DNA of 64,000 nt from Candidatus Woesearchaeota archaeon (GTDB taxonomy: Archaea > Nanobdellota > Nanobdellia > Woesearchaeales > UBA10216). Each line of letters begins with the position of its first letter. Position 1 is the first letter of the stretch. Location: NCBI GenBank assembly GCA_016188155.1, contig JACPIH010000002.1, positions 68,655 to 132,654 of the forward strand, in the 5' to 3' direction. The translations under genes were made by a program, and so were the position numbers. The notes under the pieces were generated by a model, which saw only the letters and a program-made list of their open reading frames with translations, was not told where the DNA came from and ran no database searches. Shown here one piece after another: positions 289-57,324 of the stretch.

Positions 289-295
289 CCTGAAA

Positions 296-16205: not shown

Positions 16206-16232
16206 CCATTTGCTATTATTTGTTATTATTTG

Positions 16233-17929: not shown

Positions 17930-17956
17930 AACAGCCAGGCATGTTAGGAAGACTTA

Positions 17957-20136: not shown

Positions 20137-20153
20137 AGAGAAAGAAGGGCTAT

Positions 20154-21221
<1,068 letters not shown>

Positions 21222-21224
21222 TTA

Positions 21225-23481: not shown

Positions 23482-23500
23482 GGTGTTGCCTAGCCGCATC

Positions 23501-25526: not shown

Positions 25527-25591
25527 ATTATCAGAAGGGTTGACTGTGCGACTTCTTTAAATTTTCCATTTAATGGTATTCAATGGGGCAG

Positions 25592-36473: not shown

Positions 36474-36476
36474 TTT

Positions 36477-41444: not shown

Positions 41445-42494
41445 ATGGATAGGGCGAAAGCAGAAGCTATTGAAAGAATAAGGTCACAGTATTCACTCGA
41501 GCGTTTAAAACAAATGCTTGATAAATTTAGAAATTTGAAAATCCTGGTGATTGGCGATGCCATCATAGACGAGTATCATTTCACTACCCCGAAAGGCAGG
41601 GCAGTAAAGGACCCTATCCTTTCTGTCGACTACATTAAGCACGAGGCCTATGCAGGTGGAGTGTTTGCCATAGCAAACCACTTGAGTGATTTTGCAGATA
41701 GCGTTACTTTGCTTACAATGCTTGGAGACAGGGACGACAGGAAAGATTTTATTGCCAACGCACTCAACAAGAATATAGTTACTAAATTTTTTGTCAAACA
41801 AAATTCTCCTACGACAGTTAAAAAGCGGTATTTGAATGCCCTTCGAAATGAAAAGCTGTTCAAGGTCGAATACCTAAACGATGCCCCCATATCGGAGGAA
41901 CTTGAAAGAAGCATACTCAACTTCTTGATTGAGGAACTGCCTAAATTTGACTTGGTCGTGGTAGGTGATTTTGGCCACAGCCTCATTACAGAAAACATGA
42001 TAAACGTGTTGGAGGGAAAATCAAATTACATCACCGTAAACGTCCAATCCAATAGTGCAAATCTCGGTTTTAACTTTGTTACAAAGTATAAATCCCCAAA
42101 TTACGTCACTATGGACATACCTGAGCTTCAATATGCCGTGTCTGACAGATTCAACGAAGTGCCTGTGCTGGCTGCAAAGCTTTATGCCAAGACGCGTTTC
42201 AAAAAATTTTTGGTAACAATGGGCGGGGCCGGCGCTGGCTACTTCAATGCGGGCAGACCAACATTTTTCCCTGCATTTGCGAGCAGGCCGCTGGACGTTG
42301 TTGGCGCTGGCGATGCGGTTTTTTCCATTACCTCACTGCTCGCTTACTGCAATTACGATGAGCTAATACCATTTATTGCCAATTGTGTTGGCGGCATTGC
42401 CGTTTCCTACATGGGAAACAAGGAGTACATAACAAAAAAGAAGCTGCTTGACTTTATTGAGCAAGTTTACAACGGGGATGTTCATATGCAGTAA
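41445..42494 (+). CDS. PfkB-family carbohydrate kinase, RfaE/HldE domain I-like (candidate heptose-7-phosphate kinase)
   Basis: ILVIGDAIIDEYHF…AYAGGVFAIANHL…; C-terminal VVGAGDAVFS (GAGDA PfkB motif). Confidence 0.6.
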   Translation: MDRAKAEAIERIRSQYSLERLKQMLDKFRNLKILVIGDAIIDEYHFTTPKGRAVKDPILSVDYIKHEAYAGGVFAIANHLSDFADSVTLLTMLGDRDDRKDFIANALNKNIVTKFFVKQNSPTTVKKRYLNALRNEKLFKVEYLNDAPISEELERSILNFLIEELPKFDLVVVGDFGHSLITENMINVLEGKSNYITVNVQSNSANLGFNFVTKYKSPNYVTMDIPELQYAVSDRFNEVPVLAAKLYAKTRFKKFLVTMGGAGAGYFNAGRPTFFPAFASRPLDVVGAGDAVFSITSLLAYCNYDELIPFIANCVGGIAVSYMGNKEYITKKKLLDFIEQVYNGDVHMQ

Positions 42495-42531: not shown

Positions 42532-43623
42532 TCAGAAAGGCCCTGTGAAGCTCGGGTCTGGCACGTCCAGATATTTTGGCTCTTTTTTCTCTTCTTCTTC
42601 AATAAGCTCCCCTGCTTTGTCGCGTTTTCCAACCATTTCGCAGGCTGTTTTTATGACATCGGTGTGCCTCGGATAATAGTAGTTGGCAAGTGCCGGCGTG
42701 GATGGCGTTGGTATGTCGGGGGATGTGATTCTGCGGGGAGCGACAATCATATGGTCAAACGCCTCTTCTGAAACTCGCGCTACGACATCTCCTGCAAGGC
42801 CTACAGAGTAATAGCCCGAGTCTGCAACTAGCAAGCGCCCTGTTTTTTTGACTGATTCAATGATTTTTCCGTAATCAAGCGGCTTTACAGTTCGGATGTC
42901 TATGACCTCTGCTGATATCCCTGCTTTTTCCAAAACGGTTGCAGCCCTCAAAGCCTCCACAGCCATGTAGGAGGTTGCCGCTATTGTAATGTCGGTTCCT
43001 TTTCGTATCACGCTTGCCGCACCAAGAGGGACTGTGTAGGGCTCCTGAGGCACATACCCTGTCATGCTGTGCAGCCACCTGTGCTCTATGAATATTACCG
43101 GGTTGTTGTCCTGTATGCTTGCCATTAATAGGCCTTTGGCATCGTGTGCCGTGCTTGGCATCACTACCTTTAATCCTGGTATGTGGGCCAGAATGGCTTG
43201 CAGGTTTTGCGAGTGCTGGGCTCCCTGTCCCCAGCCCCTTCCGATTACTGCCCTGATTACCAAGGGGACCTTCATTTGGCCGCCAAACATGTAGTGCCAC
43301 TTTGCAGCGTTATTGACAAGCTGGTCCATCGCCAGCAGCAAGAAGTCAATGCGCTGGTGCACCATTATGGGCCTCATGCCCTGAATTGCAGCTCCTATGC
43401 AAACGCCGGTGACTCCCCCTTCTGATAGCGGCATGTCCAGCACCCTCATTTTGCCGTACTTTTCGCGCAGGCCCTTGGTTGTGCCGAAAACGTGTTTCGG
43501 GTCGGGAACGCCCTCGCCGATAATGAAAACAGAAGGATCCTCTTCCATGCTTTGGTCTATTGCTTCCTGTATCGCTGCAGCATAAGTTATTTCTCTTGTC
43601 CGCTCAACGTCTCTTTCAGCCAT
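42532..43623 (-). CDS. TPP-dependent 2-oxoacid dehydrogenase E1 component beta subunit (transketolase-like C-terminal)
   Basis: E1-beta-like pattern (…MPLSEGGVTGVCIGAAIQGMRPI…); acidic C-terminal tail. Confidence 0.75.
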   Translation of the reverse strand: MAERDVERTREITYAAAIQEAIDQSMEEDPSVFIIGEGVPDPKHVFGTTKGLREKYGKMRVLDMPLSEGGVTGVCIGAAIQGMRPIMVHQRIDFLLLAMDQLVNNAAKWHYMFGGQMKVPLVIRAVIGRGWGQGAQHSQNLQAILAHIPGLKVVMPSTAHDAKGLLMASIQDNNPVIFIEHRWLHSMTGYVPQEPYTVPLGAASVIRKGTDITIAATSYMAVEALRAATVLEKAGISAEVIDIRTVKPLDYGKIIESVKKTGRLLVADSGYYSVGLAGDVVARVSEEAFDHMIVAPRRITSPDIPTPSTPALANYYYPRHTDVIKTACEMVGKRDKAGELIEEEEKKEPKYLDVPDPSFTGPF

Positions 43624-43662
43624 TTTCCAAAACTTTAATGTATGTTGCTTGTGGTTGTTTGC

Positions 43663-44640
43663 TCAATCGGCATAAAGGTACTCGTGAAGGGCGCGTTTTT
43701 CCGGGAAGGGGCTTTTTTTGGCGAATGCTACGGCCTCTTCAACCTCTCGCATGATTTCCAAGTCTAGCTTTTCTAGCTCTTCCCCTGTTGCTACCTTTTT
43801 CGTGAGCATGGCTTCTTTAAATCTTTTAATTGGGCATTTCTCCATCCACTCCAGAATTTCCCTTTCAGAGCGGTAACCAAGGTCTTTGTCTTCGTTTGGG
43901 CCACAATGCTCCAGCCACCTGTAAGTTGAGAATTCTATAAATGCCGGGCCGGTGCCTGATCTTATGTTTGCAATGGCTTTTTTTGTAGTTTCATATACCG
44001 CAATGACATCATTGCCGTCTGCCCGATAAGTTTGTATGGCGTGGGCCTCTGCCAGTTTGCCTATTTCCCTGTTAGGCTGCCTTTCTGGCAGGGAGGTTTG
44101 GCAGGCGTAGAGGTTATTTTCGCATACAAACAACACAGGCAGTTTGTGCAGCGAAGAAAAATTTAGGGCTTCGTGGAATACCCCCTCCTCCACTGCCGAG
44201 TCTCCAAAAAAGGCGACTGAAATGCCTGGCTTGTTTTGCGCTTTCAATGCGAAAGCAATTCCCACGGCAACTGGTATTGTGCCGGCAACCAATGGGGTCG
44301 CGGCTATGAAATTCACAGCCAGGTCTATCAGGTGCATTGAGCCTCCTCTTCCCTTTGAACAGCCTGTTGCTTTTCCGTAAAGTTCAGCAAGCATGCCTTT
44401 CAGGCTTCCCCCTTTTGCAAGGTAATGCCCATGGGCGCGGTGGTTCGAAAAGACACAGTCTTCCTTGACCAAGTTTAGGCATACCCCTGCGGAAACGGCT
44501 TCCTGCCCTATGCACAGGTGAGTTGGGCACCTCATCTCCTGTTCATGATAAAGCTCAACAATTTTCTCTTCTGCTCTTCTGATCAAAAGCATACTTTTGT
44601 AAAGTTCAATCAGAGTATCGTTGGAGAACTGATTTTCCAT
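43663..44640 (-). CDS. TPP-dependent dehydrogenase E1 component alpha subunit
   Basis: FFGDSAVEEGVFHEALNFSSLHKLPVLFVCENNLYA TPP-binding signature. Confidence 0.75.
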   Translation of the reverse strand: MENQFSNDTLIELYKSMLLIRRAEEKIVELYHEQEMRCPTHLCIGQEAVSAGVCLNLVKEDCVFSNHRAHGHYLAKGGSLKGMLAELYGKATGCSKGRGGSMHLIDLAVNFIAATPLVAGTIPVAVGIAFALKAQNKPGISVAFFGDSAVEEGVFHEALNFSSLHKLPVLFVCENNLYACQTSLPERQPNREIGKLAEAHAIQTYRADGNDVIAVYETTKKAIANIRSGTGPAFIEFSTYRWLEHCGPNEDKDLGYRSEREILEWMEKCPIKRFKEAMLTKKVATGEELEKLDLEIMREVEEAVAFAKKSPFPEKRALHEYLYAD

Positions 44641-44705: not shown

Positions 44706-45098
44706 TTAAACAGTTGAATAAGCCAGGAGACTTACGCCCAGAATTATGCTTGAAATGCCAAGCCACTTGAACCTGTTCATCCTTTCCCTGAGGAACTTCA
44801 TTGAAAGCAGAGAGACCCAGATGTAAGTAAGGGAGGTAATCGGATAAACCAAGGAAAGGCTCGCATTCTTCAAGGCCCACAGGTAAACAGGGGTTGGAGC
44901 TGCGTAAAGGAACACGCCAACAAGAAGGTTTGTATTTTTTATAATGCCTCGCAGTTGCTTAAGAATATCAATGGAAAGCGAAAACTCTGAAGCGCCTTTC
45001 TTAAAGAACAAGGCCCCAAACGCTGCTGTAACCGTAAAGACAGCTACAATCCCCGCAACCACTATTGTTTCAACCATGCTCAGCACCGTAACCAACAA
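44706..45098 (-). CDS. small 4-TM SMR/EamA-like membrane protein (ArnE/ArnF-like half-transporter)
   Basis: 130 aa; …SLVYPITSLTYIWVSLLS…GISSIILGVSLLAY pattern; paired with similar neighbour. Confidence 0.5.
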   Translation of the reverse strand: MLVTVLSMVETIVVAGIVAVFTVTAAFGALFFKKGASEFSLSIDILKQLRGIIKNTNLLVGVFLYAAPTPVYLWALKNASLSLVYPITSLTYIWVSLLSMKFLRERMNRFKWLGISSIILGVSLLAYSTV

Positions 45099-45429
45099 GG
45101 CTCACTCCAAGAACTATAAAGCCAACTCCAGCCCAGCTTATCAGCGGCAGCCTCTCGCTAAAAAAGAAAAAAGCTACAAGAGCAACCCATATGTAGCTTA
45201 AACCAATGAAAGGGTAAACAACTGAAAGTTCTGCGCGCTTCAAGGCACACATGAGCAGGATTGCCGCTATGAGGTAAAAAAACAATCCAATAAGAACAGG
45301 ATAGTTTGTAATAAGAGCTAAAGGCTCAAGCCTCAGCGAACCAGCGCCAAGCTTGTACAGGTACTGCCCTGCTGTTGAAAAAACGGTGAACAGAACCATT
45401 AACACAATGGCAAAAGACCTTGTTTTCAT
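45070..45429 (-). CDS. small 4-TM SMR/EamA-like membrane protein (ArnE/ArnF-like partner)
   Basis: 119 aa; …SVVYPFIGLSYIWVALVAFFFFSERL…GFIVLGVSLVGYG. Confidence 0.5.
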   Translation of the reverse strand: MKTRSFAIVLMVLFTVFSTAGQYLYKLGAGSLRLEPLALITNYPVLIGLFFYLIAAILLMCALKRAELSVVYPFIGLSYIWVALVAFFFFSERLPLISWAGVGFIVLGVSLVGYGAEHG

Positions 45430-45441
45430 ATAGCACCAAAT

Positions 45442-46548
45442 TCATGTAAGGCCGGAATAGAAGCTCCTTACTGCGTCGCATACAACTTCAAGCTCCTCAT
45501 CCGACAATTCCGGATAAATGGGGAGGCTCAATATTCTCTTAGCCTGAGCTTCTGCTACGGGAAAATTCCCCTCCTTGTACCCCAGCAGAGAGGCAGCCTC
45601 CTGCAAGTGGATAGGAATAGGATAATGCACCTTAGTTTCAACACCCAGCTTTAACAGGTGCTGCATCATCTCATTCCGCCTTTCGCACTGCACAATAAAC
45701 GTGTGGTACACTGGCTCTTCACCTTGCGCATCAACAGGAACCTTCACAACACCGTGCAATCTTTCCCTATACATGGCCGCCATTTCCCTTTTTCTCCTAT
45801 TCCAGCCATCGAGGTACCTAAGTTTAACGTTGAGGATAGCAGCCTGCAGATTATCCAGCCTTGAATTATAACCCCACATCTCGCATTCATCCCTGTTTTT
45901 CAATCCGTGGTTCCTGATTTTCACCAACTTTTCATAAAGGGCTGTATCGTTTGTGGTTATAGCGCCTCCGTCCCCGTATGCGTTAAGCGTTTTCAGGGGA
46001 TGAAAACTGAAACATCCGGCAATCCCAAAAGAGCCTGCCTTTTTGCCATTATATGAAGCCCCTACTGACTGCGCCGCATCTTCGATGACGTAAAGGCCAT
46101 GCCGCTTTGCAATATCCAGTATGGCACTCATGTCTGCCGGCCTTCCGGTAAGGTGAACAGGCATTATTGCCTTCGTCCTTCCCGTAATAGCCTCTTCTAT
46201 TTTATTCGGATCTATATTGTAATCATCCCTGACGTCGGCAAAAACAGGCTTTGCACCAGCGGCAATTATTGCCCCAGCAGTTGCCAGAAAAGAATTAGGT
46301 GCGGTTATCACCTCATCACCGCGGCCAATGCCTAACGCCTTCATAACCAGAAACAAGGCATCTGTTCCGTTAGCAACGCCAACTGCGTATCTGCAGCCGC
46401 AGTAGCTGGCGAAATTTTGTTCGAACTCTTTCAGCTCATTCCCGAGAATAAAGCTTCCAGATTGACAAACGTCATCTATTTTTTTGAGAATTTCATCCCT
46501 CAGCGAGTTAAACTGGGCCGCTATATTTACAAATTTAACTGTTTTCAT
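45442..46548 (-). CDS. DegT/DnrJ/EryC1/StrS-family PLP sugar aminotransferase
   Basis: …GVANGTDAL…GCFSFHPLKTLNAYGDGGAITTND…. Confidence 0.85.
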   Translation of the reverse strand: MKTVKFVNIAAQFNSLRDEILKKIDDVCQSGSFILGNELKEFEQNFASYCGCRYAVGVANGTDALFLVMKALGIGRGDEVITAPNSFLATAGAIIAAGAKPVFADVRDDYNIDPNKIEEAITGRTKAIMPVHLTGRPADMSAILDIAKRHGLYVIEDAAQSVGASYNGKKAGSFGIAGCFSFHPLKTLNAYGDGGAITTNDTALYEKLVKIRNHGLKNRDECEMWGYNSRLDNLQAAILNVKLRYLDGWNRRKREMAAMYRERLHGVVKVPVDAQGEEPVYHTFIVQCERRNEMMQHLLKLGVETKVHYPIPIHLQEAASLLGYKEGNFPVAEAQAKRILSLPIYPELSDEELEVVCDAVRSFYSGLT

Positions 46549-47642
46549 CTGAAAAACTCCTTCACTTTTTGAATGACGTACTCCTTCTGTTCGCCAGTAA
46601 GATGCTGATGGACAGGCAGCGAAATAATGTGGTCTGCCTGGTATTCTGTTGCTGGAAAGTCTCCTTTGACATAACCGAGGTATTCGCTTGCTTTTTGCAA
46701 ATGAAGCGGAATTGGGTAATGAACCTTAGCATCTATTCCTTGTTCCATAAGAAATTTAAGCAGCTTATCCCTATTTTTCACCATAATCACGTAATTATGA
46801 AACACATTTTTGTAACCCTTCCTTCTTGGAGGAATGGTAATGTCCGGTATCTTTGAAAATTCGTCATCATATAGCTTGGCATTTTCAATCTTGGCATTTA
46901 TAATCCAGTCAACATGCCTGATAAGGTGGTTGCCAACAACAGCATGAAGGGTGTCCAGCCTGCTATTGTAGGCATAAAACTCGCATTCGTCACGGCTTAT
47001 CAGCCCGTGGTTTCTAAGAAGCAACAATTTACCCCTCATCTTTTCCGAGCTTGTTACGACCATACCTCCATCTCCCCAAACGTTTATCGGTTTAAGGGGA
47101 TGAAAACTGAAGCAGCCTGTCACTCCAAAAGAGCCAACCTTCTTGCCATTTACCTCGGCGCCAATTGCCTGACATGCATCCTCTACCACAGGAATGGCAT
47201 GCTTTTTAGAAAGCAGCATTATCTTTTCCATGTCTGCAGGGCACCCATTTAAATGCACCGGGATAATTGCCTTGGTTTCCCCAGTTATTGCCGCTTCAAT
47301 AAGGCCGGCATTTAGTGTGTAGTTATCATCTACATCAACAAAAACAGGTCTTGCACCAACAGTCGCGATTGCTCCAGCCGTAGCATAAAAAGAATTTGCA
47401 GCAGTAATAATCTCATCGCCTGAACCAACTCCCAACGCGATTAGCGAAAGCCTCAGCGCATCAGTGCCGCTACCAACACCAACGCCGTACTTTGTTTGAA
47501 TCACCGCAGAAAAATTTTCCTCGAATTTTTCAAGTTCCCTGCCAAGGGTAAAATCACCGCTTTTAACAAGTTTTCTTATGTCACTAAGTATCAAATCCGG
47601 ATTATTAAACTGCTCCTTAAGGTACGAATAGCCAACCTCCAT
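46545..47642 (-). CDS. DegT/DnrJ/EryC1/StrS-family PLP sugar aminotransferase (tandem paralog)
   Basis: …GVGSGTDAL…GCFSFHPLKPINVWGDGGMVVTS…; 4-nt overlap with downstream paralog. Confidence 0.85.
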   Translation of the reverse strand: MEVGYSYLKEQFNNPDLILSDIRKLVKSGDFTLGRELEKFEENFSAVIQTKYGVGVGSGTDALRLSLIALGVGSGDEIITAANSFYATAGAIATVGARPVFVDVDDNYTLNAGLIEAAITGETKAIIPVHLNGCPADMEKIMLLSKKHAIPVVEDACQAIGAEVNGKKVGSFGVTGCFSFHPLKPINVWGDGGMVVTSSEKMRGKLLLLRNHGLISRDECEFYAYNSRLDTLHAVVGNHLIRHVDWIINAKIENAKLYDDEFSKIPDITIPPRRKGYKNVFHNYVIMVKNRDKLLKFLMEQGIDAKVHYPIPLHLQKASEYLGYVKGDFPATEYQADHIISLPVHQHLTGEQKEYVIQKVKEFFR

Positions 47643-47753
47643 CGGTTACGGGCGATTACGCTTCGTATATTAATCTTTTGGTTAGCATTGGAAAAAACAA
47701 AAGCTTTTAATAAGATAATTTGGCGAACATGCCCAAATGGAAAGGGGGCATTT

Positions 47754-48536
47754 ATGAAGAAATCAAAAATAGCATCGGTAGCGACAGATGCGCGTAGAGG
47801 CAGCAAGGCTGCCTCTAAATCGTTGTCCGTCATTATCCCAGTATACAATGAAGAAAAAAACTTGGCAAATGCTGCTAAGACGATAAACTCAGCAGTGAAG
47901 AAGTTCTTCTATGATTACGAACTAATAATCCTCAATGACGCAAGCACAGATAAAACGGCAGCAATCGCAACCGCATTAGCCAAAAAGGATTCAAAAATAA
48001 GATTTGTTGATTTTAAAATAAATCGTGGATTCGGAGCAATGTATAGGGAAGGCGTTACACGGGCAAAAAAGGAGTACCTTATGATGGTTCCGGGTGATAA
48101 CGAGATTCTTGGCGAGTCGATAGAAAACATACTGTCACACACTGGAGAAGCCGACGTAGTGCTCTCCTACACGGTAAACAAGGAAGCAAGACCACTGTTA
48201 AGGCAGGTAGTGTCCACTTTTTTTACTAGCCTCCTAAATTTTTTATTCGGCTTCAAGCTTAAATACTACATAGGCATGGTCTTATATAAAACAGCCCTTG
48301 TACAAAATGTGAAAATGACAACGAACAGCTTTGCATTTCAGGCGGAGATCCTGATTCGCCTGCTTAAAAGCGGCTATTCGTACAAAGAGGTTCCCATGAT
48401 GATAAGGCAATATAAAGGTTCACTGAAAAACCTTTTTCGGATTAAGAACTTAATTGGCGTGTTAGTGACTGTATTGCGGCTGCTTTTTGACGTATACATC
48501 CGCAAGGAAACAACATTGGGAAAAACTCAGCTTTAA
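47754..48536 (+). CDS. glycosyltransferase family 2, polyprenyl-phosphate sugar synthase-like (Dpm1/ArnC-type)
   Basis: LSVIIPVYNEEKNL…LIILNDASTD…; paralog of 38485..39195; start 47754 chosen because upstream part of ORF-track frame overlaps DegT gene. Confidence 0.75.
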   Translation: MKKSKIASVATDARRGSKAASKSLSVIIPVYNEEKNLANAAKTINSAVKKFFYDYELIILNDASTDKTAAIATALAKKDSKIRFVDFKINRGFGAMYREGVTRAKKEYLMMVPGDNEILGESIENILSHTGEADVVLSYTVNKEARPLLRQVVSTFFTSLLNFLFGFKLKYYIGMVLYKTALVQNVKMTTNSFAFQAEILIRLLKSGYSYKEVPMMIRQYKGSLKNLFRIKNLIGVLVTVLRLLFDVYIRKETTLGKTQL

Positions 48537-48543
48537 ACTGAAT

Positions 48544-49476
48544 TTAATTATGCCTAAACCATTCAATCGTGCGCTTCAGGCCAGCGTCAACGCTTACCTT
48601 CGGCTGCCAGTTAAGCAGTTTCTTTGCCTTGGAAATGTCAGGGCATCTTGTCTTAGGGTCATCAACAGGCAAAGGCTTGAATGTTATCTTGCTGCCGCTG
48701 CCGGTAAGTTTCAAAATCTTCCCTGCAAACTCCAAAACAGTGTACTCATCAGGATTGCCAAGGTTAATAGGCTCACTAGCCTTTGACAGCATCAGCCGGT
48801 AAATACCCTCAACAAGATCGGTCACGTAACAAAAGCTTCTGGTCTGGGAGCCGTCACCAAAAACAGTAAGTGGCTTTCCTGAAAGGGCCTGCGTAATGAA
48901 AGCGGGAACAACACGGCCATCATTTTTGCGCATGCACTCACCATAAGTGTTGAAAATCCTGGCTATTTTCGTGTCCGTTTTATGAACGCGGTGGTAAGCC
49001 ATTGTGAGCGCCTCTGCAAACCTCTTTGCCTCATCGTAAACACCCCTGGGCCCGATAGGGTTAACATTGCCCCAGTAGCTTTCAGGCTGGGGATGAACAA
49101 GAGGATCACCGTAGACCTCTGAGGTTGAAGCAAGAAGAAAAACAGCCTTCTTAACCTTTGCCAAGCCAAGCATGTTATGAGTTCCCAAACTCCCAACTTT
49201 CAGCGTCTGGATAGGAAAAGCCGCATAATCAAAAGGCGATGCAGGACTAGCAAAATGAAGCACGTAATGAACAGGCTCTGGTATCTCAATGGGCTTCGTA
49301 ACATCATGGTTAATGAAAACAAAATCGCTGTTGCCCTTAAATTCAGTTATGTTCCTGCCGCTCCCGGTAAGGAAATTGTCAACGCAGACAACCCTGAAGC
49401 CCTTATCCAAAAGAAACCTGCACAAATGGCTGCCAATAAAACCGGCTCCGCCAGTAACGAGAACAGTTTTCTTCAT
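48544..49476 (-). CDS. UDP-glucuronate decarboxylase (UDP-xylose synthase / ArnA-C-terminal-like)
   Basis: [39 protein letters not shown]…YDEAKR typical UXS. Confidence 0.8.
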
Positions 49477-49529
49477 TTTTGTTTTATTTATTCGTATGTT
49501 TTTAACCTTTGCTACTGCAGCTTATTCTG

Positions 49530-50282
49530 CTAAGGCTCAAACTCCTTCCTCGCCGCTTCAAGCGCCTCAATCCAGCCTATGTCAAACCACTTTTCAGTGT
49601 AAACGTGGCCAAGGACCTTCTCAAGCTTCATAAGCCACACAAGGAAAAAGCCCATCTTGTCAGGGCTGTTCTTTTCCGCAATGTATTTTTTAACCAAGTT
49701 AAGCTTTTGCTGCGGAAAAAAATAAATGCCCAAAGAGATCAAAGTGGATTTTGGCATAGGAGATTTTTCCATAAACTCAACAAACTCGTTAGTCAGCTCA
49801 TCAATCACGACGCTTCCAGATTCTCTCGCAGCCTTGTAAGATTTTGACTCATACAGCGGATTCAATATCTGCTTCTGCCGCATGAAAACATTGTAAGCAG
49901 GAAGAAGAGAGAAATTGAACAAGTTGTCTCCAGCAACAACAAGAAGGCCATCATCGATACCTTCCCTTTCCATAACGAAATGTATGTCCCCAACCTGGCC
50001 AAGGCGGTCATCATTGGATGCTGTGCCATCATTAACCAGCTTGATTGGAACTGGAAAGTTCGCCTTTATCTCAACCAGCCAGTCCTCAAACAAGGGATAA
50101 AACTTTGCATTTGTGACAATAAAGATTTCATCAACCTCAGGAATCTCGGAAATCTTTCCAACAATGTGCTCAACAATTGGCTTCCCCTTAACCTCAAGAA
50201 GCGGCTTCGGGATGTCTTTGGTCAATGGCCACAAGCGGGAGGCATAACCGGCAGCTGTAATTATTGCTTTGATACAAATCAC
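49530..50282 (-). CDS. sugar-phosphate nucleotidyltransferase
   Basis: AIITAAGYASRLWPLT…LLVVAGDNLF. Confidence 0.6.
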   Translation of the reverse strand: MICIKAIITAAGYASRLWPLTKDIPKPLLEVKGKPIVEHIVGKISEIPEVDEIFIVTNAKFYPLFEDWLVEIKANFPVPIKLVNDGTASNDDRLGQVGDIHFVMEREGIDDGLLVVAGDNLFNFSLLPAYNVFMRQKQILNPLYESKSYKAARESGSVVIDELTNEFVEFMEKSPMPKSTLISLGIYFFPQQKLNLVKKYIAEKNSPDKMGFFLVWLMKLEKVLGHVYTEKWFDIGWIEALEAARKEFEP

Positions 50283-50289
50283 CCCTCAT

Positions 50290-51591
50290 TTAGCCCCGGC
50301 CAATCCCAGCATAATTGAAGCCCAGGCTCCGCATTTCCTCTGGCTCGTAAATGTTGCGGCCATCAACGACATTAGGCTCGGCCATAAGCTGCTTCATCCT
50401 GCCCTTATCCAGTTCGCGGAACAAATCCCACTCAGTAACAACAACAAGGCAGCTTGCACCTTCCAAGGCACCCAGAGGCGTATCAGCGTAATGAACTCCA
50501 TTGAGAACCTGCCGGGCATTCCTCTCCGAAACAGGGTCAAAGGCATACACCTCGGCGCCAAGCTTCTGCAGCTCCCTTATTATGACAATTGAAGGGGCTT
50601 CCCTCATGTCATCAGTCTTTGGCTTGAAAGAAAGGCCCCAGACAGTAACCTTCCTGCCCTTCAAATCAGGCACGAGCCTCTGGACTTTTTGAATGACAGA
50701 AGACTTCTGCAATTCATTAATGCCGTCCACAGACTCCAAAAGCCTTGAGTTGCAGCCATGCGCCTTCATCAATTGAATCAGGGCCCTCACATCCTTAGGG
50801 AAACAGCTTCCGCCGTAACCAATGCCTGCCTGAAGGAACCTTGGGCCTATCCTGCTATCAAGGCCGATGCCTTTAGCGATTGTCTTCACATCGGCACCGA
50901 CCTTCTCACACAAATAGGAAATCTCGTTCATAAAGGAGATTCTTGTGGCAAGCATCGCATTGCTTGCGTACTTGATAAGCTCAGAGCTCTTGACATCGGT
51001 AATCATAATAGGCCTTCCGGTTCGCTCAATAGGCCTGTAAATGGAAAGCATAACGTCTTTTGCCTTGCCATTGTCAACGCCAATGACAACCCTGTCCGGA
51101 ATCATAAAGTCGTTAACAGCCTCGCCCTCCCTAAGGAACTCGGGATTTGAGACAACATCAAACTCAACGGCCTTCCTAAGCTTCTCCCTTATCAATTCCC
51201 GGACCTTGTGGCAGGTTCCAACAGGAACCGTGCTTTTGACTATGATAACCTTGTAAGAGCCCATAAACCTGGCAATCTGCTCGGCAACAGCAAAAACAGA
51301 AGACATGTCAGCGCTGCCATCAGAGCTGGAAGGGGTGCCAACAGCAATAAAGACAACATCAGAATTCTTAATGGCAATCTCAGAGTCTGTCGTAAACATA
51401 AGGCGCTTCTGGGCAAGGTTCATCTCAACCATGTCCCTAAGGCCGGGCTCGAAAAACGGGATAACGCCCCTCCTGAGAGCAGAGACCTTCTCGTCATCAA
51501 TGTCAACGCAGATAACGTCATTGCCAAGGTTAGCAAGGCAGGCGCCTGTCACAAGGCCAACGTAGCCACAACCAATAACAGCAATCTTCAT
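50290..51591 (-). CDS. ugd: UDP-glucose 6-dehydrogenase
   Basis: MKIAVIGCGYVGLVTGACLA…; GGSCFPKD catalytic Cys motif; ATG 51591 with TATA about 26 nt upstream. Confidence 0.85.
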   Translation of the reverse strand: MKIAVIGCGYVGLVTGACLANLGNDVICVDIDDEKVSALRRGVIPFFEPGLRDMVEMNLAQKRLMFTTDSEIAIKNSDVVFIAVGTPSSSDGSADMSSVFAVAEQIARFMGSYKVIIVKSTVPVGTCHKVRELIREKLRKAVEFDVVSNPEFLREGEAVNDFMIPDRVVIGVDNGKAKDVMLSIYRPIERTGRPIMITDVKSSELIKYASNAMLATRISFMNEISYLCEKVGADVKTIAKGIGLDSRIGPRFLQAGIGYGGSCFPKDVRALIQLMKAHGCNSRLLESVDGINELQKSSVIQKVQRLVPDLKGRKVTVWGLSFKPKTDDMREAPSIVIIRELQKLGAEVYAFDPVSERNARQVLNGVHYADTPLGALEGASCLVVVTEWDLFRELDKGRMKQLMAEPNVVDGRNIYEPEEMRSLGFNYAGIGRG

Positions 51592-51612
51592 ACTGCTGCC
51601 GAACACCAAACA

Positions 51613-51620
51613 CATATAAA
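51613..51620 (-). promoter_or_regulatory. TATA box (TTTATATG on minus strand) about 26 nt upstream of ugd ATG 51591
   Basis: Sequence and spacing in divergent ugd / RHH-regulator intergenic region. Confidence 0.4.
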
Positions 51621-52561: not shown

Positions 52562-52684
52562 CGTCGTGAACGGCCATGGCCGCCCGGTAATACCTGATCC
52601 CATTTCGAACTCAGAAGTCAAGCGGGCGCACGTTCCTGCCAGTACTGCACGTCGTGCGGAAACGTAGGATCGCTGTTCACACTT
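52562..52684 (+). rRNA. rrf: 5S ribosomal RNA
   Basis: …CCCAUUUCGAACUCAGAAGUCAAGCGGGCGCACG… matches conserved 5S loop C/helix III core; 5' GUGAACGGC pairs with 3' GCUGUUCAC (helix I); TATA upstream, T5 tract downstream. Confidence 0.8.
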
Positions 52685-56844: not shown

Positions 56845-57324
56845 ATGGATTGTGACATGTGCGGGAGGGAGCAGGCCACCCTTAAGGCAGCTGTGGAAGG
56901 CAGCGTGCTGAGCCTGTGCGACGGCTGCAGCAAATTTGGGAAGGTTGTTGGCAGGGTGGCTACAGCTGCGGCTGCTGCTAAGAAAAAAGAGGGGAAAACT
57001 GCGGCTATTGCCGAAGACGATACCGAACTCATTGTTGCCAACTTTGGCCAGCTCCTAAAGCAGAAGAGGGAAGAGCTTGGCAGGAAGCAGGAAGACGGGT
57101 TCATGAAACTGGAGGACTTTGCCAAGATGATTAACGTGAAGGAGTCTGTGCTTCACAAGATGGAAACCGGGGCTTTAAAGCCGAGCGTTGAGGAAGCGAA
57201 AAGGATAGGGAAGGCCCTGGGAATAAAGCTTGTGGAAAAAGCTGAGGCTGTGGAAGATATAGTGCCGCAGCCGAAAAAGGACCAGCTCACGCTGGGAGAT
57301 TTGATAAAGATTAAGAAGAAGTAG
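56845..57324 (+). CDS. mbf1: MBF1-type transcription cofactor (N-terminal Zn-ribbon plus C-terminal HTH_XRE)
   Basis: CDMCGRE…CDGC zinc ribbon; …DFAKMINVKESVLHKMETGALKPSVEEAKRIGKALGIKL HTH cro/C1-type. Confidence 0.65.
   Translation: MDCDMCGREQATLKAAVEGSVLSLCDGCSKFGKVVGRVATAAAAAKKKEGKTAAIAEDDTELIVANFGQLLKQKREELGRKQEDGFMKLEDFAKMINVKESVLHKMETGALKPSVEEAKRIGKALGIKLVEKAEAVEDIVPQPKKDQLTLGDLIKIKKK

What the first reader, a model, noticed from the sequence alone, without database searches (positions are those of the whole stretch)
44706..51591. Arn-like aminopentose lipid-carrier module (Ugd, UDP-GlcA decarboxylase, DegT aminotransferases, Dpm1/ArnC-like GT2, paired ArnE/F-like SMR proteins, ArnT-like GT-C)
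Contiguous genes encode the following:
- UDP-glucose 6-dehydrogenase;
- a UXS/ArnA-C-like UDP-glucuronate decarboxylase;
- two tandem DegT aminotransferases (ArnB-like);
- a polyprenyl-phosphate GT2 (ArnC-like), with a second copy at 38485..39195;
- two adjacent 119- and 130-aa four-TM SMR/EamA-like proteins, arranged like the ArnE/ArnF flippase pair;
- ArnT/PMT-like GT-C transferases (39308..41191, 57311..58864).

Taken together this is the gene content of the bacterial 4-amino-4-deoxy-L-arabinose (polymyxin-resistance) pathway. It may have been repurposed to decorate archaeal lipids or surface proteins with an aminopentose. Each component has alternative readings: UXS could make UDP-xylose, and DegT could aminate dTDP-4-keto-6-deoxyglucose from RmlB. 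The strength of the call lies in the combination.
Basis: partly seen in the sequence, partly recalled or inferred. Interest (0 to 1): 0.7.

Follow-up and report, generated by a model that had tools for sequence, protein, structure and literature searches.

The report
Archaeal lipid-linked sugar transfer module
The genes are real, but they do not encode the bacterial aminoarabinose (polymyxin-resistance) pathway; they most likely form a lipid-carrier sugar-transfer system, inside a large surface-sugar island of a tiny DPANN archaeon, that probably delivers an unusual heptose-derived sugar.

Summary
All the listed genes exist, with three corrections. The GT2 lies on the opposite strand (47754-48536). 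An unlisted nucleotidyltransferase sits between Ugd and the decarboxylase. The DegT-DegT-SMR-SMR run continues into a PDH-E1-like TPP enzyme pair (42532-44640).

The aminoarabinose reading fails on the sugar chemistry:
- The decarboxylase is UXS-type (364 bits to human UXS1, 67 to ArnA).
- Both DegTs sit with sugar C3-aminotransferases (QdtB, DesV, WbpE), not ArnB.
- No formyltransferase, ArnD or ArnT homologue is in the window.

The "lipid-carrier module" half holds:
- The GT2 model's top 22 PDB fold matches are all ArnC, GtrB or DPMS.
- Both small membrane proteins match ArnE at 98% hhalign probability, against 41-64% for EmrE.
- In seven relatives' loci the pair sits beside a GT2 or GT-C gene.

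In relatives (DPANN, Methanocellales) the GT2, GT-C, DegT pair and E1αβ travel with heptose-nucleotide genes, not with UXS. The best model is a three-component glycosylation system (polyprenyl-P-sugar synthase, SMR flippase, GT-C). Its cargo is probably a C-branched or aminated heptose derivative. Ugd-NTP-UXS is a separate UDP-GlcA/UDP-Xyl supply. I rate it a new variant of a known kind.

The parts
50290..51615 (-). UDP-glucose 6-dehydrogenase (Ugd/AglM-like). First gene of the Ugd-NTP-UXS operon.
   Evidence: Three UDPG_MGDP_dh domains. NCBIfam TuaD 530 bits, AglM 412 bits, NDP-sugar dehydrogenase subfamily 468 bits against a cutoff of 190. Catalytic motif GGSCFPKD present. An 80% ortholog lies next to the NTP ortholog in L062.
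49530..50282 (-). Sugar-1-phosphate nucleotidylyltransferase, probably the UDP-glucose-forming enzyme (AglF/GalU-like).
   Evidence: Pfam NTP_transferase 83 bits. Best NCBIfam matches are the archaeal GlmU N-domain (81 bits) and AglF (70 bits), all below cutoffs. Lies 7 nt downstream of Ugd.
48544..49476 (-). UDP-glucuronate decarboxylase of the UXS (UDP-xylose synthase) type.
   Evidence: Human UXS1 structures score 362-364 bits (E about 1e-108). The next best hit is 126 bits; ArnA scores 65-67 bits. Identity to the E. coli ArnA C-domain is 24%. GGAGFIG and YDEAK motifs present. An 81% ortholog exists in L055; the gene is absent at the syntenic site in L062.
47754..48536 (+). GT2 of the polyprenyl-phosphate glycosyltransferase class (ArnC/GtrB/DPMS-like), 260 aa. 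It has no transmembrane hairpin and a C-terminal amphipathic helix.
   Evidence: Pfam Glycos_transf_2 83 bits. Start confirmed by the 100%-identical protein P0133. AlphaFold2 model has pLDDT 88.5. The top 22 Foldseek PDB matches are all ArnC, GtrB or DPMS, E down to 2.5e-15, best TM 0.70-0.74. Orthologs sit in E1a-E1b-GT2 operons in L005, L056 and L063.
46545..47642 (-). DegT-family PLP sugar aminotransferase 2. First gene of the DegT-DegT-SMR-SMR-E1a-E1b operon.
   Evidence: Pfam 352 bits. Best PDB match is 3uwc at 387 bits; QdtB 249 bits, ArnB 152 bits. SFHPLK lysine motif present. Orthologs of 74-81% occur in tandem in L055 and L062.
45442..46548 (-). DegT-family PLP sugar aminotransferase 1.
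   Evidence: Pfam 414 bits. PDB matches: 7b0d 373, QdtB 349, DesV (2oga) 326, WbpE 265, ArnB 175-178 bits. SFHPLK motif present. Overlaps DegT2 by 4 nt.
45070..45429 (-). SMR-A: small four-helix EamA/SMR-like membrane protein, ArnE-like. Proposed flippase subunit.
   Evidence: Best NCBIfam match is ArnE at 37.8 bits against a cutoff of 92. hhalign of the family against E. coli ArnE gives 96-98% probability over the full length, ArnF 59-92%, EmrE 50-64%. TM1 carries Gln (AGQ) aligned to the ArnE AGQ rather than a Glu.
44706..45098 (-). SMR-B: paralogous small membrane protein, 38% identical to SMR-A. Proposed partner subunit.
   Evidence: Pfam EamA 35 bits against a cutoff of 28. Best NCBIfam matches are ArnE and ArnF. 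hhalign of the family gives ArnE 97.9%, ArnF 89.4%, EmrE 41%. Ten of eleven Lys/Arg residues lie in loops 1 and 3, a bias opposite to the weak bias of SMR-A (my reading of the sequence; residue counts). Overlaps SMR-A by 29 nt.
43663..44640 (-). E1 alpha subunit of a PDH/acetoin-dehydrogenase-like TPP enzyme. Proposed two-carbon branching enzyme acting on a keto sugar nucleotide.
   Evidence: Pfam E1_dh 235 bits. Human PDH E1alpha scores 204 bits. GDS-x26-NN TPP motif present. No E2 or E3 gene in the window or in six related loci. Always embedded in sugar genes.
42532..43623 (-). E1 beta subunit, partner of E1 alpha.
   Evidence: Transket_pyr and Transketolase_C domains. NCBIfam PDH E1beta subfamily 330 bits against a cutoff of 321. 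Orthologs of 61-86% lie next to E1alpha in L005, L055, L056, L057, L062 and L063.
41445..42494 (+). PfkB-family kinase, HldE domain-I-like (heptose-7-phosphate kinase candidate).
   Evidence: Best NCBIfam match is rfaE_dom_I at 121 bits, below the cutoff of 345. In L062 the 68% ortholog lies on the same strand 39 nt downstream of the DegT pair, apparently one operon.
39308..41191 (-). GT-C glycosyltransferase (PMT_2 family), 627 aa, about 12 hydrophobic segments. Proposed extracytoplasmic transferase.
   Evidence: Pfam PMT_2 34 bits against a cutoff of 26. No sequence-level PDB match. Orthologs of 57-64% lie directly beside the SMR pair in L005, L008 and L010, and upstream of E1a-E1b in L062.
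38485..39195 (-). Second GT2 of the same class (236 aa), 50% identical to the 47754 gene.
   Evidence: Pfam 90 bits. Weak matches to AglJ, ArnC, PpgS and the dolichyl-phosphate hexose transferase model. PDB matches to ArnC, DPMS and GtrB at 29-35 bits. Paralogy shown.
37376..38533 (-). Fusion of a cytidylyl/adenylyltransferase-like domain with an HAD phosphatase (HldE domain II plus GmhB-like).
   Evidence: Pfam CTP_transf_like plus HAD. NCBIfam rfaE_dom_II 105 bits, GmhB 61 bits, HAD-IIIA 72 bits against a cutoff of 45. Orthologs follow E1a-E1b in L055 and L062.
35331..37379 (+). Radical SAM/SPASM enzyme (35331-36473) plus an SDR epimerase/reductase (36477-37379).
   Evidence: Pfam matches. 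Orthologous adjacent pairs occur in L056 (56% and 44%) and L057 (64% and 55%), in both cases beside the E1ab-heptose genes.
23044..26284 (.). HIT protein (23044-23481, +), two SDRs (23501-24607 and 24504-25526, -) and a GmhA-like SIS isomerase (25592-26284, -). This is the heptose-modification block, which in relatives lies next to the SMR pair or E1ab.
   Evidence: Pfam matches. NCBIfam gmhA 120 bits, below cutoff. Orthologs of 76-85% flank the SMR pair in L001 and L008, and flank E1ab in L055, L057 and L063. Best PDB match for 23501-24607 is 6vo6 at 135 bits.
57311..58864 (-). Second, unrelated PMT_2 GT-C protein. Its link to the module is unproven.
   Evidence: Pfam PMT_2 38 bits. Weak match to the Agl23 family at 28 bits, below cutoff. 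No ortholog found in the SMR-pair loci.

Best explanation
The finding is part of a surface-glycan island of at least 40 kb in a DPANN (Woesearchaeota-like) archaeon. Its functional core is a three-component, lipid-carrier glycosylation system.

Proposed mechanism:
1. A soluble or peripheral GT2 of the ArnC/GtrB/DPMS class (47754-48536; paralog at 38485-39195) charges dolichyl or polyprenyl phosphate with one sugar on the cytoplasmic face.
2. A heterodimer of two ArnE/F-like four-helix SMR proteins (45070-45429 and 44706-45098) moves the lipid-P-sugar to the outer leaflet.
3. A PMT_2-type GT-C enzyme (39308-41191) transfers the sugar to a surface protein, glycan or lipid.

The cargo is probably not an aminopentose. 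It is more likely a modified heptose made from a nucleotide-heptose by:
- GmhA-, HldE- and GmhB-like enzymes;
- SDR oxidoreductases;
- the PDH-E1-like TPP enzyme pair, proposed to add a two-carbon branch from pyruvate to a keto sugar;
- in this genome, the two C3-aminotransferase-like DegT enzymes.

Ugd, the nucleotidyltransferase and UXS form a separate three-gene operon that makes UDP-glucuronate and UDP-xylose for the same glycans.

Shown here: the family or fold assignment of each part, and the conserved gene linkage. Inferred: flipping, the lipid acceptor, the identity of the cargo, and the role of the E1 pair.
For: GT2:
- The AlphaFold2 model has pLDDT 88.5.
- The top 22 Foldseek PDB hits are all polyprenyl-phosphate GTs: ArnC, GtrB and P. 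furiosus DPMS.
- Distant homologs are fused to GtrA domains, and some are named dolichol-phosphate mannosyltransferase by JGI.

SMR pair:
- The best NCBIfam models are ArnE and ArnF.
- hhalign gives 98% to ArnE and 89-92% to ArnF, against 41-64% to EmrE.
- TM1 carries Gln in place of the proton- and cation-binding Glu. This fits the lipid subtype described in PMC9574504.
- The two genes are adjacent, overlapping paralogs, like arnE/arnF.

Linkage:
- Seven of seven relatives' loci that carry the pair (L001/L009 counted as one genome, L005, L008, L010, L011, L056, L060) have a GT2 or GT-C gene next to it.
- GT2 orthologs sit in E1a-E1b-GT2 operons in L005, L056 and L063.
- In L062 the order is GT-C, E1a, E1b, HldC.

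Cargo:
- E1ab, two SDRs and GmhA-, PfkB- and CTP-transferase/HAD-like genes are co-located in DPANN loci (L055, L056, L062, L063).
- The same set is co-located in a Methanocellales genome (L057). There a split transketolase and a transaldolase, which could supply sedoheptulose-7-P, lie alongside.
- The best NCBIfam hits of these genes are gmhA, rfaE domain I, rfaE domain II and GmhB.
- In L062 the DegT pair and the heptose-kinase-like PfkB gene lie on one strand, 39 nt apart.
- There is precedent for PDH-E1alpha/beta pairs that add two-carbon branches to 4-keto sugars: Plm8/Plm9 and AviB1/B2 (PMC4802897).
- Three-component systems with an EmrE/ArnE-like four-helix flippase are established in bacteria (PMC11127046).
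Against: - No step has been tested biochemically.
- All heptose-pathway matches fall below NCBIfam trusted cutoffs.
- The GT2 lacks the transmembrane hairpin of ArnC and GtrB.
- The GT-C has no detectable similarity to ArnT or to any solved structure at sequence level.
- More distant SMR-pair homologs (48% identity or less) have unrelated neighbours: AA_kinase plus ABC1 kinase, a GH63-like protein, SecDF and a peptidase. The flippase role therefore cannot be generalised across the family.
- Some E1ab-GT2-GT-C loci (L062, L063) show no SMR pair in the stretch fetched.
- Ugd and the nucleotidyltransferase also keep their position beside the GT2 ortholog in L062. UDP-GlcA-derived cargo is therefore not excluded.
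- Which nucleotide carries the heptose is unknown.
- No 3,4-ketoisomerase or C3-oxidase has been identified for the C3-type DegTs.
Confidence: 0.6

Rival explanations
1. One reading: an Ara4N-like pathway. UDP-GlcA is oxidatively decarboxylated to UDP-4-keto-pentose. An ArnB-like DegT aminates it at C4. The aminopentose is loaded on a polyprenyl phosphate, flipped by the ArnE/F-like pair and transferred by an ArnT-like GT-C.
For: - Ugd, a UDP-GlcA decarboxylase-family SDR, DegT enzymes, an ArnC-fold GT2, ArnE/F-like proteins and PMT_2 GT-C enzymes are all present within 13 kb.
- The DegT genes are co-transcribed with the SMR pair.
Against: - The decarboxylase is UXS-type, which reduces the 4-keto intermediate to UDP-xylose rather than releasing it. 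It scores 364 bits to human UXS1, 67 to ArnA, and 79 bits (cutoff 294) to the bifunctional 4-keto-pentose/xylose synthase model.
- The DegTs group with C3-aminotransferases. The ArnB model gives 218 and 186 bits against a cutoff of 631.
- There is no formyltransferase, ArnD or ArnT homologue.
- Orthologs of the DegT pair lie with heptose genes. UXS is missing from the syntenic site in L062, although the DegTs, GT2, Ugd and NTP are all kept.
Confidence: 0.06
2. The same three-component machine, but the cargo comes from the neighbouring Ugd-NTP-UXS operon. The GT2 at 47754 would make dolichyl-P-xylose or dolichyl-P-glucuronate. The heptose, E1 and DegT genes would serve other steps of glycan assembly.
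For: - The GT2 is convergent with UXS, with only 7 nt between the stop codons.
- In L062 the GT2 ortholog keeps the same convergent position beside the NTP and Ugd orthologs, which are 77% and 80% identical.
- There are two GT2 paralogs, so two different lipid-P-sugars are possible.
Against: - In L005, L056 and L063 the single GT2 ortholog is inside an E1a-E1b-GT2 operon with no Ugd or UXS in the stretch fetched (at most 10 kb on each side; L005 is a 5.6-kb contig).
- UXS is dispensable at the syntenic site in L062.
- Convergent genes are not co-transcribed.
Confidence: 0.17
3. There is no dedicated module. This would be a generic glycosylation island in which neighbouring genes are only loosely related. 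The small membrane pair would be a metabolite, drug or nucleotide-sugar transporter of the DMT/SMR superfamily. The E1 pair would be a remnant of central 2-oxoacid metabolism.
For: - Gene order is heavily shuffled between relatives.
- Distant homologs of the pair have unrelated neighbours.
- Pfam places the pair in EamA, a broad transporter family.
- E1alpha is closest to human PDH E1alpha among solved structures.
Against: - Despite the shuffling, the same gene set stays together across DPANN lineages and Methanocellales.
- The pair lacks the TM1 Glu needed for cation or drug antiport.
- The pair is specifically closer to ArnE/F than to EmrE.
- No E2 or E3 genes accompany E1ab in seven loci.
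- E1ab shares operons with GT2, GT-C or HldC-like genes.
Confidence: 0.15

Closest known systems
E. coli/Salmonella Arn (PmrHFIJKLM) pathway: ArnC, ArnE/ArnF and ArnT acting on undecaprenyl-phosphate-L-Ara4N
   Same: - A GT2 with the ArnC fold (top Foldseek hits).
- Two adjacent paralogous four-helix SMR-like genes that match ArnE/ArnF at 89-98% hhalign probability.
- A PMT_2-superfamily GT-C.
- The overall logic: charge a lipid phosphate, flip it, then transfer outside the cell.
   Different: - The sugar branch differs: UXS instead of the ArnA C-domain, no formyltransferase or deformylase, and C3-type rather than ArnB-type aminotransferases.
- The GT2 has no transmembrane hairpin.
- The GT-C has no detectable sequence similarity to ArnT.
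- All NCBIfam Arn equivalog cutoffs are missed by a wide margin.
- The host is an archaeon with no lipid A.
Bacterial three-component glycosylation systems: GtrA/GtrB/Gtr*, CsbB/GtcA/YfhO, and the Citrobacter youngae pentofuranose system with an EmrE/ArnE-like four-helix flippase (PMC11127046)
   Same: - Lipid-monophosphate sugar donor, small flippase and GT-C transferase encoded together.
- GtrB is among the closest structural matches of the GT2.
- A four-helix EmrE/ArnE-like flippase is used in the C. youngae system.
   Different: - The flippase here is a two-gene heteromeric SMR pair, not GtrA or a single SMR.
- The system is archaeal.
- It is embedded in heptose, E1 and DegT sugar-modification genes rather than in an O-antigen or teichoic acid locus.
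Archaeal dolichyl-phosphate sugar steps of N-glycosylation: Haloferax AglJ/AglD dolichyl-P-hexose synthases, the AglS GT-C and the AglR flippase (recalled from my own knowledge), and P. furiosus DPMS
   Same: - Weak NCBIfam matches of both GT2s to AglJ and to the haloarchaeal dolichyl-phosphate hexose transferase model.
- The DPMS structure is among the top fold matches.
- Ugd and the nucleotidyltransferase resemble AglM and AglF.
   Different: - All Agl equivalog cutoffs are missed.
- The proposed flippase is SMR-type, not Wzx-like AglR.
- A Wzx-like gene does exist elsewhere in the window, at 14736-16205.
PDH-E1alpha/beta-like sugar-branching enzymes of actinomycete deoxysugar pathways: Plm8/Plm9 (paulomycose) and AviB1/AviB2 (eurekanate)
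   Same: - An E1alpha/E1beta pair without E2 or E3, encoded inside a sugar-nucleotide cluster next to SDR oxidoreductases that could make a keto sugar.
- The TPP motif is intact.
- The role of the precedents is described in PMC4802897.
   Different: - No direct sequence comparison with Plm8/9 or AviB1/2 was possible.
- The substrate here would be a heptose-type nucleotide sugar in an archaeon.
- No activity has been tested.
Campylobacter jejuni GDP-heptose modification pathways: Cj1427 C4-dehydrogenase, epimerases and reductases (PMC10680097)
   Same: - GmhA-like, kinase, phosphatase and nucleotidyltransferase genes, plus several SDRs, are clustered.
- The SDR at 23501-24607 has 6vo6 as its best solved relative, at 135 bits. 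I recall 6vo6 as Cj1427, but I could not verify this.
   Different: - The kinase and nucleotidyltransferase are of the HldE (PfkB/cytidylyltransferase-like) type, not HddA/HddC.
- E1ab, radical SAM/SPASM and DegT steps are additional.
- The sugar would be delivered through a lipid-monophosphate and GT-C route, not by cytoplasmic GTs.

Membership tests
Arn (L-Ara4N lipid A modification) pathway | ArnA C-terminal-type UDP-GlcA oxidative decarboxylase that releases UDP-4-keto-pentose | tested here: not met
   The SDR at 48544-49476 scores 364 bits to human UXS1 and 65-67 bits to ArnA. NCBIfam ArnA gives 80 bits against a cutoff of 777. Identity to the ArnA C-domain is 24%.
Arn (L-Ara4N lipid A modification) pathway | ArnA N-terminal formyltransferase and ArnD deformylase | tested here: not met
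   tblastn of E. coli ArnA residues 1-305 and of ArnD against the whole window gave no hit better than E = 0.2. phmmer gave none either.
Arn (L-Ara4N lipid A modification) pathway | ArnB-type UDP-4-keto-pentose C4 aminotransferase | tested here: not met
   NCBIfam ArnB gives 218 and 186 bits against a cutoff of 631. PDB ArnB entries score 150-178 bits, against 249-387 bits for QdtB, DesV, 3uwc and 7b0d.
Arn (L-Ara4N lipid A modification) pathway | ArnC: undecaprenyl-phosphate GT2 with a C-terminal transmembrane hairpin | tested here: inconclusive
   The fold matches ArnC best (E 2.5e-15, TM about 0.7). However, NCBIfam ArnC gives 47 and 41 bits against a cutoff of 529. No transmembrane hairpin is present, whereas ArnC has two such helices.
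Arn (L-Ara4N lipid A modification) pathway | ArnE/ArnF heteromeric SMR flippase encoded by adjacent genes | tested here: inconclusive
   Homology is clear: hhalign gives ArnE 98% and ArnF 89-92%, against EmrE 41-64%. The two genes are adjacent and overlapping. NCBIfam equivalog cutoffs are not reached: 38 and 29 bits against 92 and 99. Flippase activity cannot be tested here.
Arn (L-Ara4N lipid A modification) pathway | ArnT (GT83) lipid A aminoarabinosyltransferase | tested here: not met
   Neither phmmer nor tblastn finds similarity between E. coli ArnT and either GT-C. The only link is the shared Pfam PMT_2 superfamily. Archaea have no lipid A (general knowledge).
Three-component polyprenyl-phosphate-sugar glycosylation systems (synthase + small flippase + GT-C) | GT-A-fold polyprenyl-phosphate glycosyltransferase of the DPMS/GtrB/ArnC class | tested here: met
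   The top 22 Foldseek PDB matches of a high-confidence model are ArnC, GtrB and DPMS. Activity was not tested.
Three-component polyprenyl-phosphate-sugar glycosylation systems (synthase + small flippase + GT-C) | Small multi-helix membrane protein(s) of a known lipid-P-sugar flippase family, encoded with the synthase | tested here: met
   An ArnE/F-like pair. It lies next to a GT2 or GT-C gene in the window and in seven of seven relatives' loci.
Three-component polyprenyl-phosphate-sugar glycosylation systems (synthase + small flippase + GT-C) | GT-C-fold transferase encoded with them | tested here: met
   Pfam PMT_2 is above its gathering cutoff for 39308-41191. Orthologs of 57-64% abut the SMR pair in L005, L008 and L010. 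The fold itself was not modelled.
Three-component polyprenyl-phosphate-sugar glycosylation systems (synthase + small flippase + GT-C) | A lipid-monophosphate-linked monosaccharide intermediate that is translocated and used outside the membrane | not testable with these tools
   This needs lipid extraction with LC-MS, in vitro reconstitution, or genetics.
UDP-xylose synthase (UXS) | High full-length similarity to characterised UXS, with the SDR catalytic motifs | tested here: met
   362-364 bits over residues 2-309 to four human UXS1 entries, with a gap of about 240 bits to the next family. GGAGFIG and YDEAK motifs present. The product was not assayed.
Sugar-nucleotide C3 aminotransferases (QdtB/DesV/WbpE clade of DegT) | Closest characterised relatives are C3 aminotransferases; PLP lysine present | tested here: met
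   QdtB 349 and 249 bits, DesV 326 and 232 bits, WbpE 265 and 205 bits. C4 enzymes score lower: ArnB, PseC, PglE and perosamine synthase at 108-195 bits. SFHPLK motif present. Regiospecificity and substrate cannot be tested here.
PDH-E1-like two-carbon sugar-branching enzymes (Plm8/9, AviB1/B2 type) | E1alpha/E1beta pair without E2/E3, encoded in a sugar-nucleotide cluster with keto-sugar-forming enzymes | tested here: met
   Context in seven loci. TPP motif intact.
PDH-E1-like two-carbon sugar-branching enzymes (Plm8/9, AviB1/B2 type) | Specific sequence relationship to Plm8/9 or AviB1/B2, and transfer of a pyruvate-derived C2 unit to a keto sugar | not tested
The activity needs biochemistry.
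Nucleotide-heptose biosynthesis (GmhA, HldE/HldA kinase, GmhB, HldE/HldC nucleotidyltransferase) | Matches to each of the four enzyme families | tested here: inconclusive
   The best NCBIfam hit of each gene is the expected heptose enzyme: gmhA 120 bits, rfaE domain I 121, rfaE domain II 105, GmhB 61. All are below the equivalog cutoffs of 209, 345, 182 and 178. The four genes co-occur in L055, L056, L057 and L063.

The most novel reading that the evidence does not exclude
DPANN archaea and some Methanocellales share an undescribed pathway.
1. A nucleotide-heptose is oxidised to a keto sugar.
2. A PDH-E1-like TPP enzyme gives it a two-carbon branch.
3. In some genomes C3-type DegT enzymes aminate it.
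4. An ArnC/DPMS-fold GT2 loads it as a single sugar onto dolichyl phosphate.
5. An ArnE/F-like SMR heterodimer flips it.
6. A GT-C attaches it to the cell surface.

As far as I could find, this would be the first SMR-type glycolipid flippase assigned in Archaea and the first lipid-monophosphate-linked heptose-derived donor.
Probability: 0.3. Interest if true: 0.7.

Novelty: new variant of a known kind. Interest (0 to 1): 0.5.

Why it matters
- Lipid-type SMR proteins (ArnE/F) are described as rare and mainly proteobacterial, and archaea were left out of the survey in PMC9574504. A conserved ArnE/F-like pair tied to GT2 and GT-C genes in DPANN archaea would extend this flippase class to another domain of life.
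- It would also offer a candidate for how archaea flip dolichyl-phosphate monosaccharides.
- The recurrent linkage of PDH-E1-like enzymes with heptose-nucleotide genes points to an uncharacterised branched, higher-carbon sugar on the surface of host-dependent nanoarchaea, where surface glycans probably mediate contact with the host.
- For annotation: co-occurrence of Ugd, an SDR decarboxylase, DegT, a GT2, SMR proteins and a GT-C should not be read as an aminoarabinose pathway without subfamily checks.

Tried and rejected
Dead ends:
- The exact-sequence look-up of the UXS protein found no contig.
- The sequence search of the 627-aa GT-C against the PDB found nothing.
- There are no tRNA genes, and only a 5S rRNA, so there was no RNA-based taxonomic handle.
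- Paper searches for PDB codes 7B0D, 3UWC and 6VO6 returned nothing. PMC7509852 is not held. The identity of 6vo6 as Cj1427 therefore rests on my memory. The substrates of 7b0d and 3uwc remain unknown to me.
- The literature search for PDH-E1 enzymes in branched-sugar synthesis gave mostly noise. One useful paper emerged, PMC4802897.
- A search for heptose pathways in DPANN found nothing specific.

A test that limited the claim:
- I tested whether the link between the SMR pair and GT2/GT-C genes extends to distant homologs in Bryobacterales, Ignavibacteria and Methanosarcinales. It mostly does not. The neighbours there are AA_kinase plus ABC1 kinase, a GH63-like protein, SecDF and a peptidase. 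Only the Ignavibacteria locus L024 has a weak PMT_2 match (25.6 bits, just under the 26.1 cutoff). I therefore restrict the claim to the closer family.

Ideas considered and rejected:
- The E1 pair as a split transketolase that makes sedoheptulose-7-P. The alpha subunit is E1_dh/PDH-type, not Transketolase_N, and L056 and L057 carry separate true split transketolases.
- The 47496 start for the GT2. The upstream 86 codons overlap DegT2 and are absent from the database protein.

Full report
**1. What is in the sequence**

The span 44706-51615 and its surroundings are densely coding. Pfam and NCBIfam scans give the following map.

Operon A (minus strand):
- Ugd, 50290-51615.
- A sugar-1-phosphate nucleotidyltransferase, 49530-50282, starting 7 nt after Ugd ends.
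- An extended SDR, 48544-49476.

Convergent with operon A, with stop codons 7 nt apart, is a GT2 on the plus strand. Its real start is ATG 47754 (260 aa). A 100%-identical NCBI protein from a Candidatus Woesearchaeota archaeon and independent gene calls on identical contigs agree with this start.

Operon B is divergent from the GT2, across a 111-nt spacer. It runs on the minus strand with overlaps or short gaps:
- DegT2, 46545-47642.
- DegT1, 45442-46548.
- SMR-A, 45070-45429.
- SMR-B, 44706-45098.
- E1alpha, 43663-44640.
- E1beta, 42532-43623.

Further downstream:
- A PfkB kinase, 41445-42494 (+).
- A PMT_2 GT-C, 39308-41191 (-).
- A second GT2, 38485-39195 (-), 50% identical to the first.
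- A cytidylyltransferase-like/HAD fusion, 37376-38533 (-).
- An SDR and a radical SAM/SPASM enzyme, 35331-37379 (+).

It missed the strand of the GT2, the nucleotidyltransferase and the E1 pair.

Almost the whole 64-kb window is a glycan and surface island. It carries RmlA/RmlB-like genes, a GMD, a GT4, a Wzx-like flippase, a GmhA-like SIS protein, more SDRs, a methyltransferase, a GHMP kinase, an acetolactate-synthase-like TPP enzyme, further GT2s and PKD/CARDB surface proteins. The closest database proteins come from Woesearchaeota/Nanoarchaeota (DPANN) genomes assembled from metagenomes.

**2. Testing the aminoarabinose reading**

I fetched the E. coli K-12 arn operon and compared each component.

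- *Decarboxylase.* Four human UXS1 entries score 362-364 bits over the full length. The next family scores 126 bits and ArnA 65-67 bits. Identity to the ArnA C-domain is 24%. The NCBIfam ArnA model and the bifunctional 4-keto-pentose/xylose synthase model are far below cutoff. This is a UXS, expected to make UDP-xylose.
- *DegTs.* Both retain the PLP lysine. Their closest solved relatives are QdtB, DesV, WbpE and the uncharacterised 3uwc and 7b0d entries, at 205-387 bits. ArnB reaches 150-178 bits and the other C4 enzymes less. The NCBIfam ArnB model gives 218 and 186 bits against a cutoff of 631.
- *Missing parts.* No formyltransferase domain, ArnD or ArnT homologue exists anywhere in the window.

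**3. Testing the lipid-carrier reading**

- *GT2.* Sequence matches are weak but point to polyprenyl-phosphate sugar synthases: ArnC, AglJ, PpgS, PgfS and the haloarchaeal dolichyl-P-hexose transferase model. An AlphaFold2 model built on 35 homologs is confident, with pLDDT 88.5. Its 22 best Foldseek matches in the PDB are all ArnC, GtrB or P. furiosus DPMS, with E down to 2.5e-15 and best TM 0.70-0.74. Unlike ArnC it has no transmembrane hairpin, only a C-terminal amphipathic helix.
- *SMR pair.* The best NCBIfam models for both proteins are ArnE and ArnF, but well below the equivalog cutoffs. Profile comparison of a 12-sequence family alignment against single E. coli sequences gave ArnE 96.4% over the full length, ArnF 58.6% and EmrE 50%.
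- *SMR pair, larger alignments.* With larger alignments taken from the fetched loci, SMR-A gave ArnE 98.0%, ArnF 91.9% and EmrE 64%. SMR-B gave 97.9%, 89.4% and 41%.
- *SMR pair, sequence features.* TM1 of SMR-A carries Gln (AGQ), aligned with the same ArnE motif, where drug and guanidinium SMRs have the essential Glu. [quoted passage not shown] It also notes that this subtype is found mainly in Proteobacteria, and that archaea were excluded from its survey. In SMR-B, ten of eleven Lys/Arg residues lie in loops 1 and 3, while SMR-A has a weak bias the other way. This is consistent with an antiparallel heterodimer, but it is my inference from the sequence.
- *GT-C.* 39308-41191 passes the Pfam PMT_2 cutoff. 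It has no sequence-level match in the PDB.

**4. Comparative genomics**

I collected 47 genome loci carrying relatives of SMR-A, and loci around homologs of SMR-A, E1alpha and the GT2. I mapped the window's proteins onto them by tblastn.

In the closer family, the pair is always next to a GT2 or GT-C gene:

| Locus | Gene order around the pair |
|---|---|
| L008 | GT-C (64%), SMR-A, SMR-B, then two SDRs and a GmhA-like gene |
| L001/L009 | two GT-C genes, divergent from the pair |
| L005 | GT2, E1b, E1a, divergent from the pair; GT-C downstream |
| L010 | GT-C adjacent |
| L011 | HldC/GmhB-like, PfkB, SMR-A, SMR-B, GT2 |
| L056 | two SDRs, the pair, then divergent E1a, E1b, GT2 |

The E1 pair is never accompanied by E2 or E3 genes. 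It always sits among the same sugar genes:

| Locus | Gene order around E1ab |
|---|---|
| L055 | GmhA-like, SDR, SDR, SDR, E1a, E1b, HldC/GmhB-like, PfkB ... DegT1, DegT2, methyltransferase, ADH |
| L062 | GT-C, E1a, E1b, HldC-like on one strand; DegT2, DegT1, PfkB on the other strand, 39 nt between DegT1 and PfkB |
| L063 | E1a, E1b, GT2, HldC-like, then HIT, HAD, GmhA-like, PfkB, SDR, SDR, GT-C |
| L057 (Methanocellales) | split transketolase, transaldolase, HAD, HldE-like fusion, SDR, SDR, E1a, E1b ... DegT, radical SAM/SPASM, SDR |

The best NCBIfam hits of the SIS, PfkB and cytidylyltransferase/HAD genes are GmhA, HldE domain I, HldE domain II and GmhB. All are below trusted cutoffs.

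By contrast, UXS is not linked to the pair in relatives. In L062 the GT2, NTP and Ugd orthologs keep their relative positions but UXS is absent.

More distant homologs of the pair (48% identity or less, in bacteria and Methanosarcinales) have unrelated neighbours. I therefore limit the functional inference to the closer family.

**5. Most likely mechanism**

The conserved unit is a three-component glycosylation system of the kind established in bacteria: Gtr, Arn, and the C. youngae pentofuranose system, which uses an EmrE/ArnE-like four-helix flippase (PMC11127046). Here the parts would be:
1. A peripheral GT2 that charges dolichyl or polyprenyl phosphate.
2. The SMR heterodimer that flips the product.
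3. A GT-C that transfers the sugar outside the cell.

The cargo is inferred from linkage. It is probably a nucleotide-heptose derivative that is oxidised by the SDRs. The SDR at 23501-24607 has 6vo6 as its best solved relative. I recall 6vo6 as the GDP-heptose C4-dehydrogenase Cj1427, whose function is described in PMC10680097, but I could not verify the PDB code.

The keto sugar would then receive a two-carbon branch from the E1 pair. The precedents are Plm8/Plm9 and AviB1/B2, which add a pyruvate-derived C2 unit to 4-keto sugars (PMC4802897). The TPP motif GDS-x26-NN is intact. In this genome the two DegTs would also aminate the sugar.

Operon A would be a self-contained UDP-Glc to UDP-GlcA to UDP-Xyl supply line for other residues of the glycan. 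Heptose has been reported in an archaeal N-glycan, in Thermoplasma (PMC11407970).

Shown here: family and fold assignments, and gene linkage. Inferred: lipid acceptor, flipping, cargo identity, E1 chemistry and DegT regiochemistry.

**6. Rivals**

- A variant in which the GT2 at 47754 makes dolichyl-P-xylose or dolichyl-P-glucuronate is not excluded. The GT2, NTP and Ugd genes stay adjacent in L062 (about 0.17).
- A null model of loosely related island genes, with the pair acting as a generic transporter, is weakened by the recurrent linkage, the missing TM1 Glu and the ArnE/F-specific similarity (about 0.15).

**7. Novelty and verdict**

Each part belongs to a known family, and the architecture is a known kind. 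New, as far as I could find, are:
- an ArnE/F-like SMR pair tied to GT2 and GT-C genes in Archaea;
- the recurrent coupling of PDH-E1-like enzymes with heptose-nucleotide genes;
- the implied lipid-monophosphate donor of a heptose-derived sugar.

I rate it a new variant of a known kind, with interest about 0.5.

Noticed in passing
window 42532-44640; L005, L055, L056, L057, L062, L063: A PDH-E1alpha/beta-like TPP enzyme pair without E2 or E3 genes recurs next to heptose-nucleotide-like genes and SDRs. It is found in DPANN archaea and in a Methanocellales genome. This may mark an undescribed branched or chain-extended heptose pathway.
   Followed up: partly
window 33446-35218, with 31156-33316 and 30293-30973: An acetolactate-synthase/YerE-like three-domain TPP enzyme (590 aa) sits beside a class-V aminotransferase, a GHMP kinase and a HAD phosphatase. 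This is a second TPP-dependent step in the same island. Its function is unknown.
   Followed up: no
window 35331-37379; L056 12798-14779; L057 17281-19289: A radical SAM/SPASM enzyme paired with a short SDR 'epimerase' is conserved as an adjacent pair in two other lineages, beside the E1/heptose genes. L055 and L057 additionally carry B12-binding radical SAM enzymes next to DegT genes.
   Followed up: partly
L062 10001-12901, compared with window 47754-51615: In a relative, the orthologs of the GT2, nucleotidyltransferase and Ugd keep the same arrangement, but the UXS gene is absent between them. UXS therefore looks like an accessory insertion.
   Followed up: partly
L012 10688-13272; L015 10658-12984; L017 10694-13090 (L017 by ORF size only): More distant homologs of the SMR pair, in loci labelled Methanosarcinales and Woesearchaeota, are followed by an AA_kinase-family protein and an ABC1/UbiB-like kinase instead of glycosyltransferases. 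The AA_kinase could be an isopentenyl-phosphate kinase, which is my guess. This hints at a different, possibly isoprenoid-lipid-related, role.
   Followed up: no
window 4016-12601: A low-GC stretch (37-39%, against about 47% elsewhere) encodes several large ORFs with no Pfam match, including one of 1094 aa. It ends in a 787-aa PKD/CARDB surface protein. These may be surface proteins, which could be glycosylation targets, or acquired DNA.
   Followed up: no
window 52566-52681: A stand-alone 5S rRNA gene (66.6 bits) lies immediately downstream of the sugar island. No tRNA or other rRNA gene is in the 64 kb.
   Followed up: no
window 14736-22286: A classical Wzx-like flippase (Polysacc_synt), RmlA- and RmlB-like genes, a GT4, an SDR and a GDP-mannose 4,6-dehydratase form another block. 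The island thus also encodes a lipid-pyrophosphate-oligosaccharide-type route and 6-deoxyhexose supply.
   Followed up: no
window 1-2000: AT skew is strongly positive (0.33) at the left end of the window, well above the rest of the sequence. I have no explanation.
   Followed up: no
P0218 and P0225: Distant homologs of the GT2 are fused to a GtrA-like domain (PF04138). This is a synthase-flippase fusion, and it supports a lipid-P-sugar role for this GT2 family.
   Followed up: no
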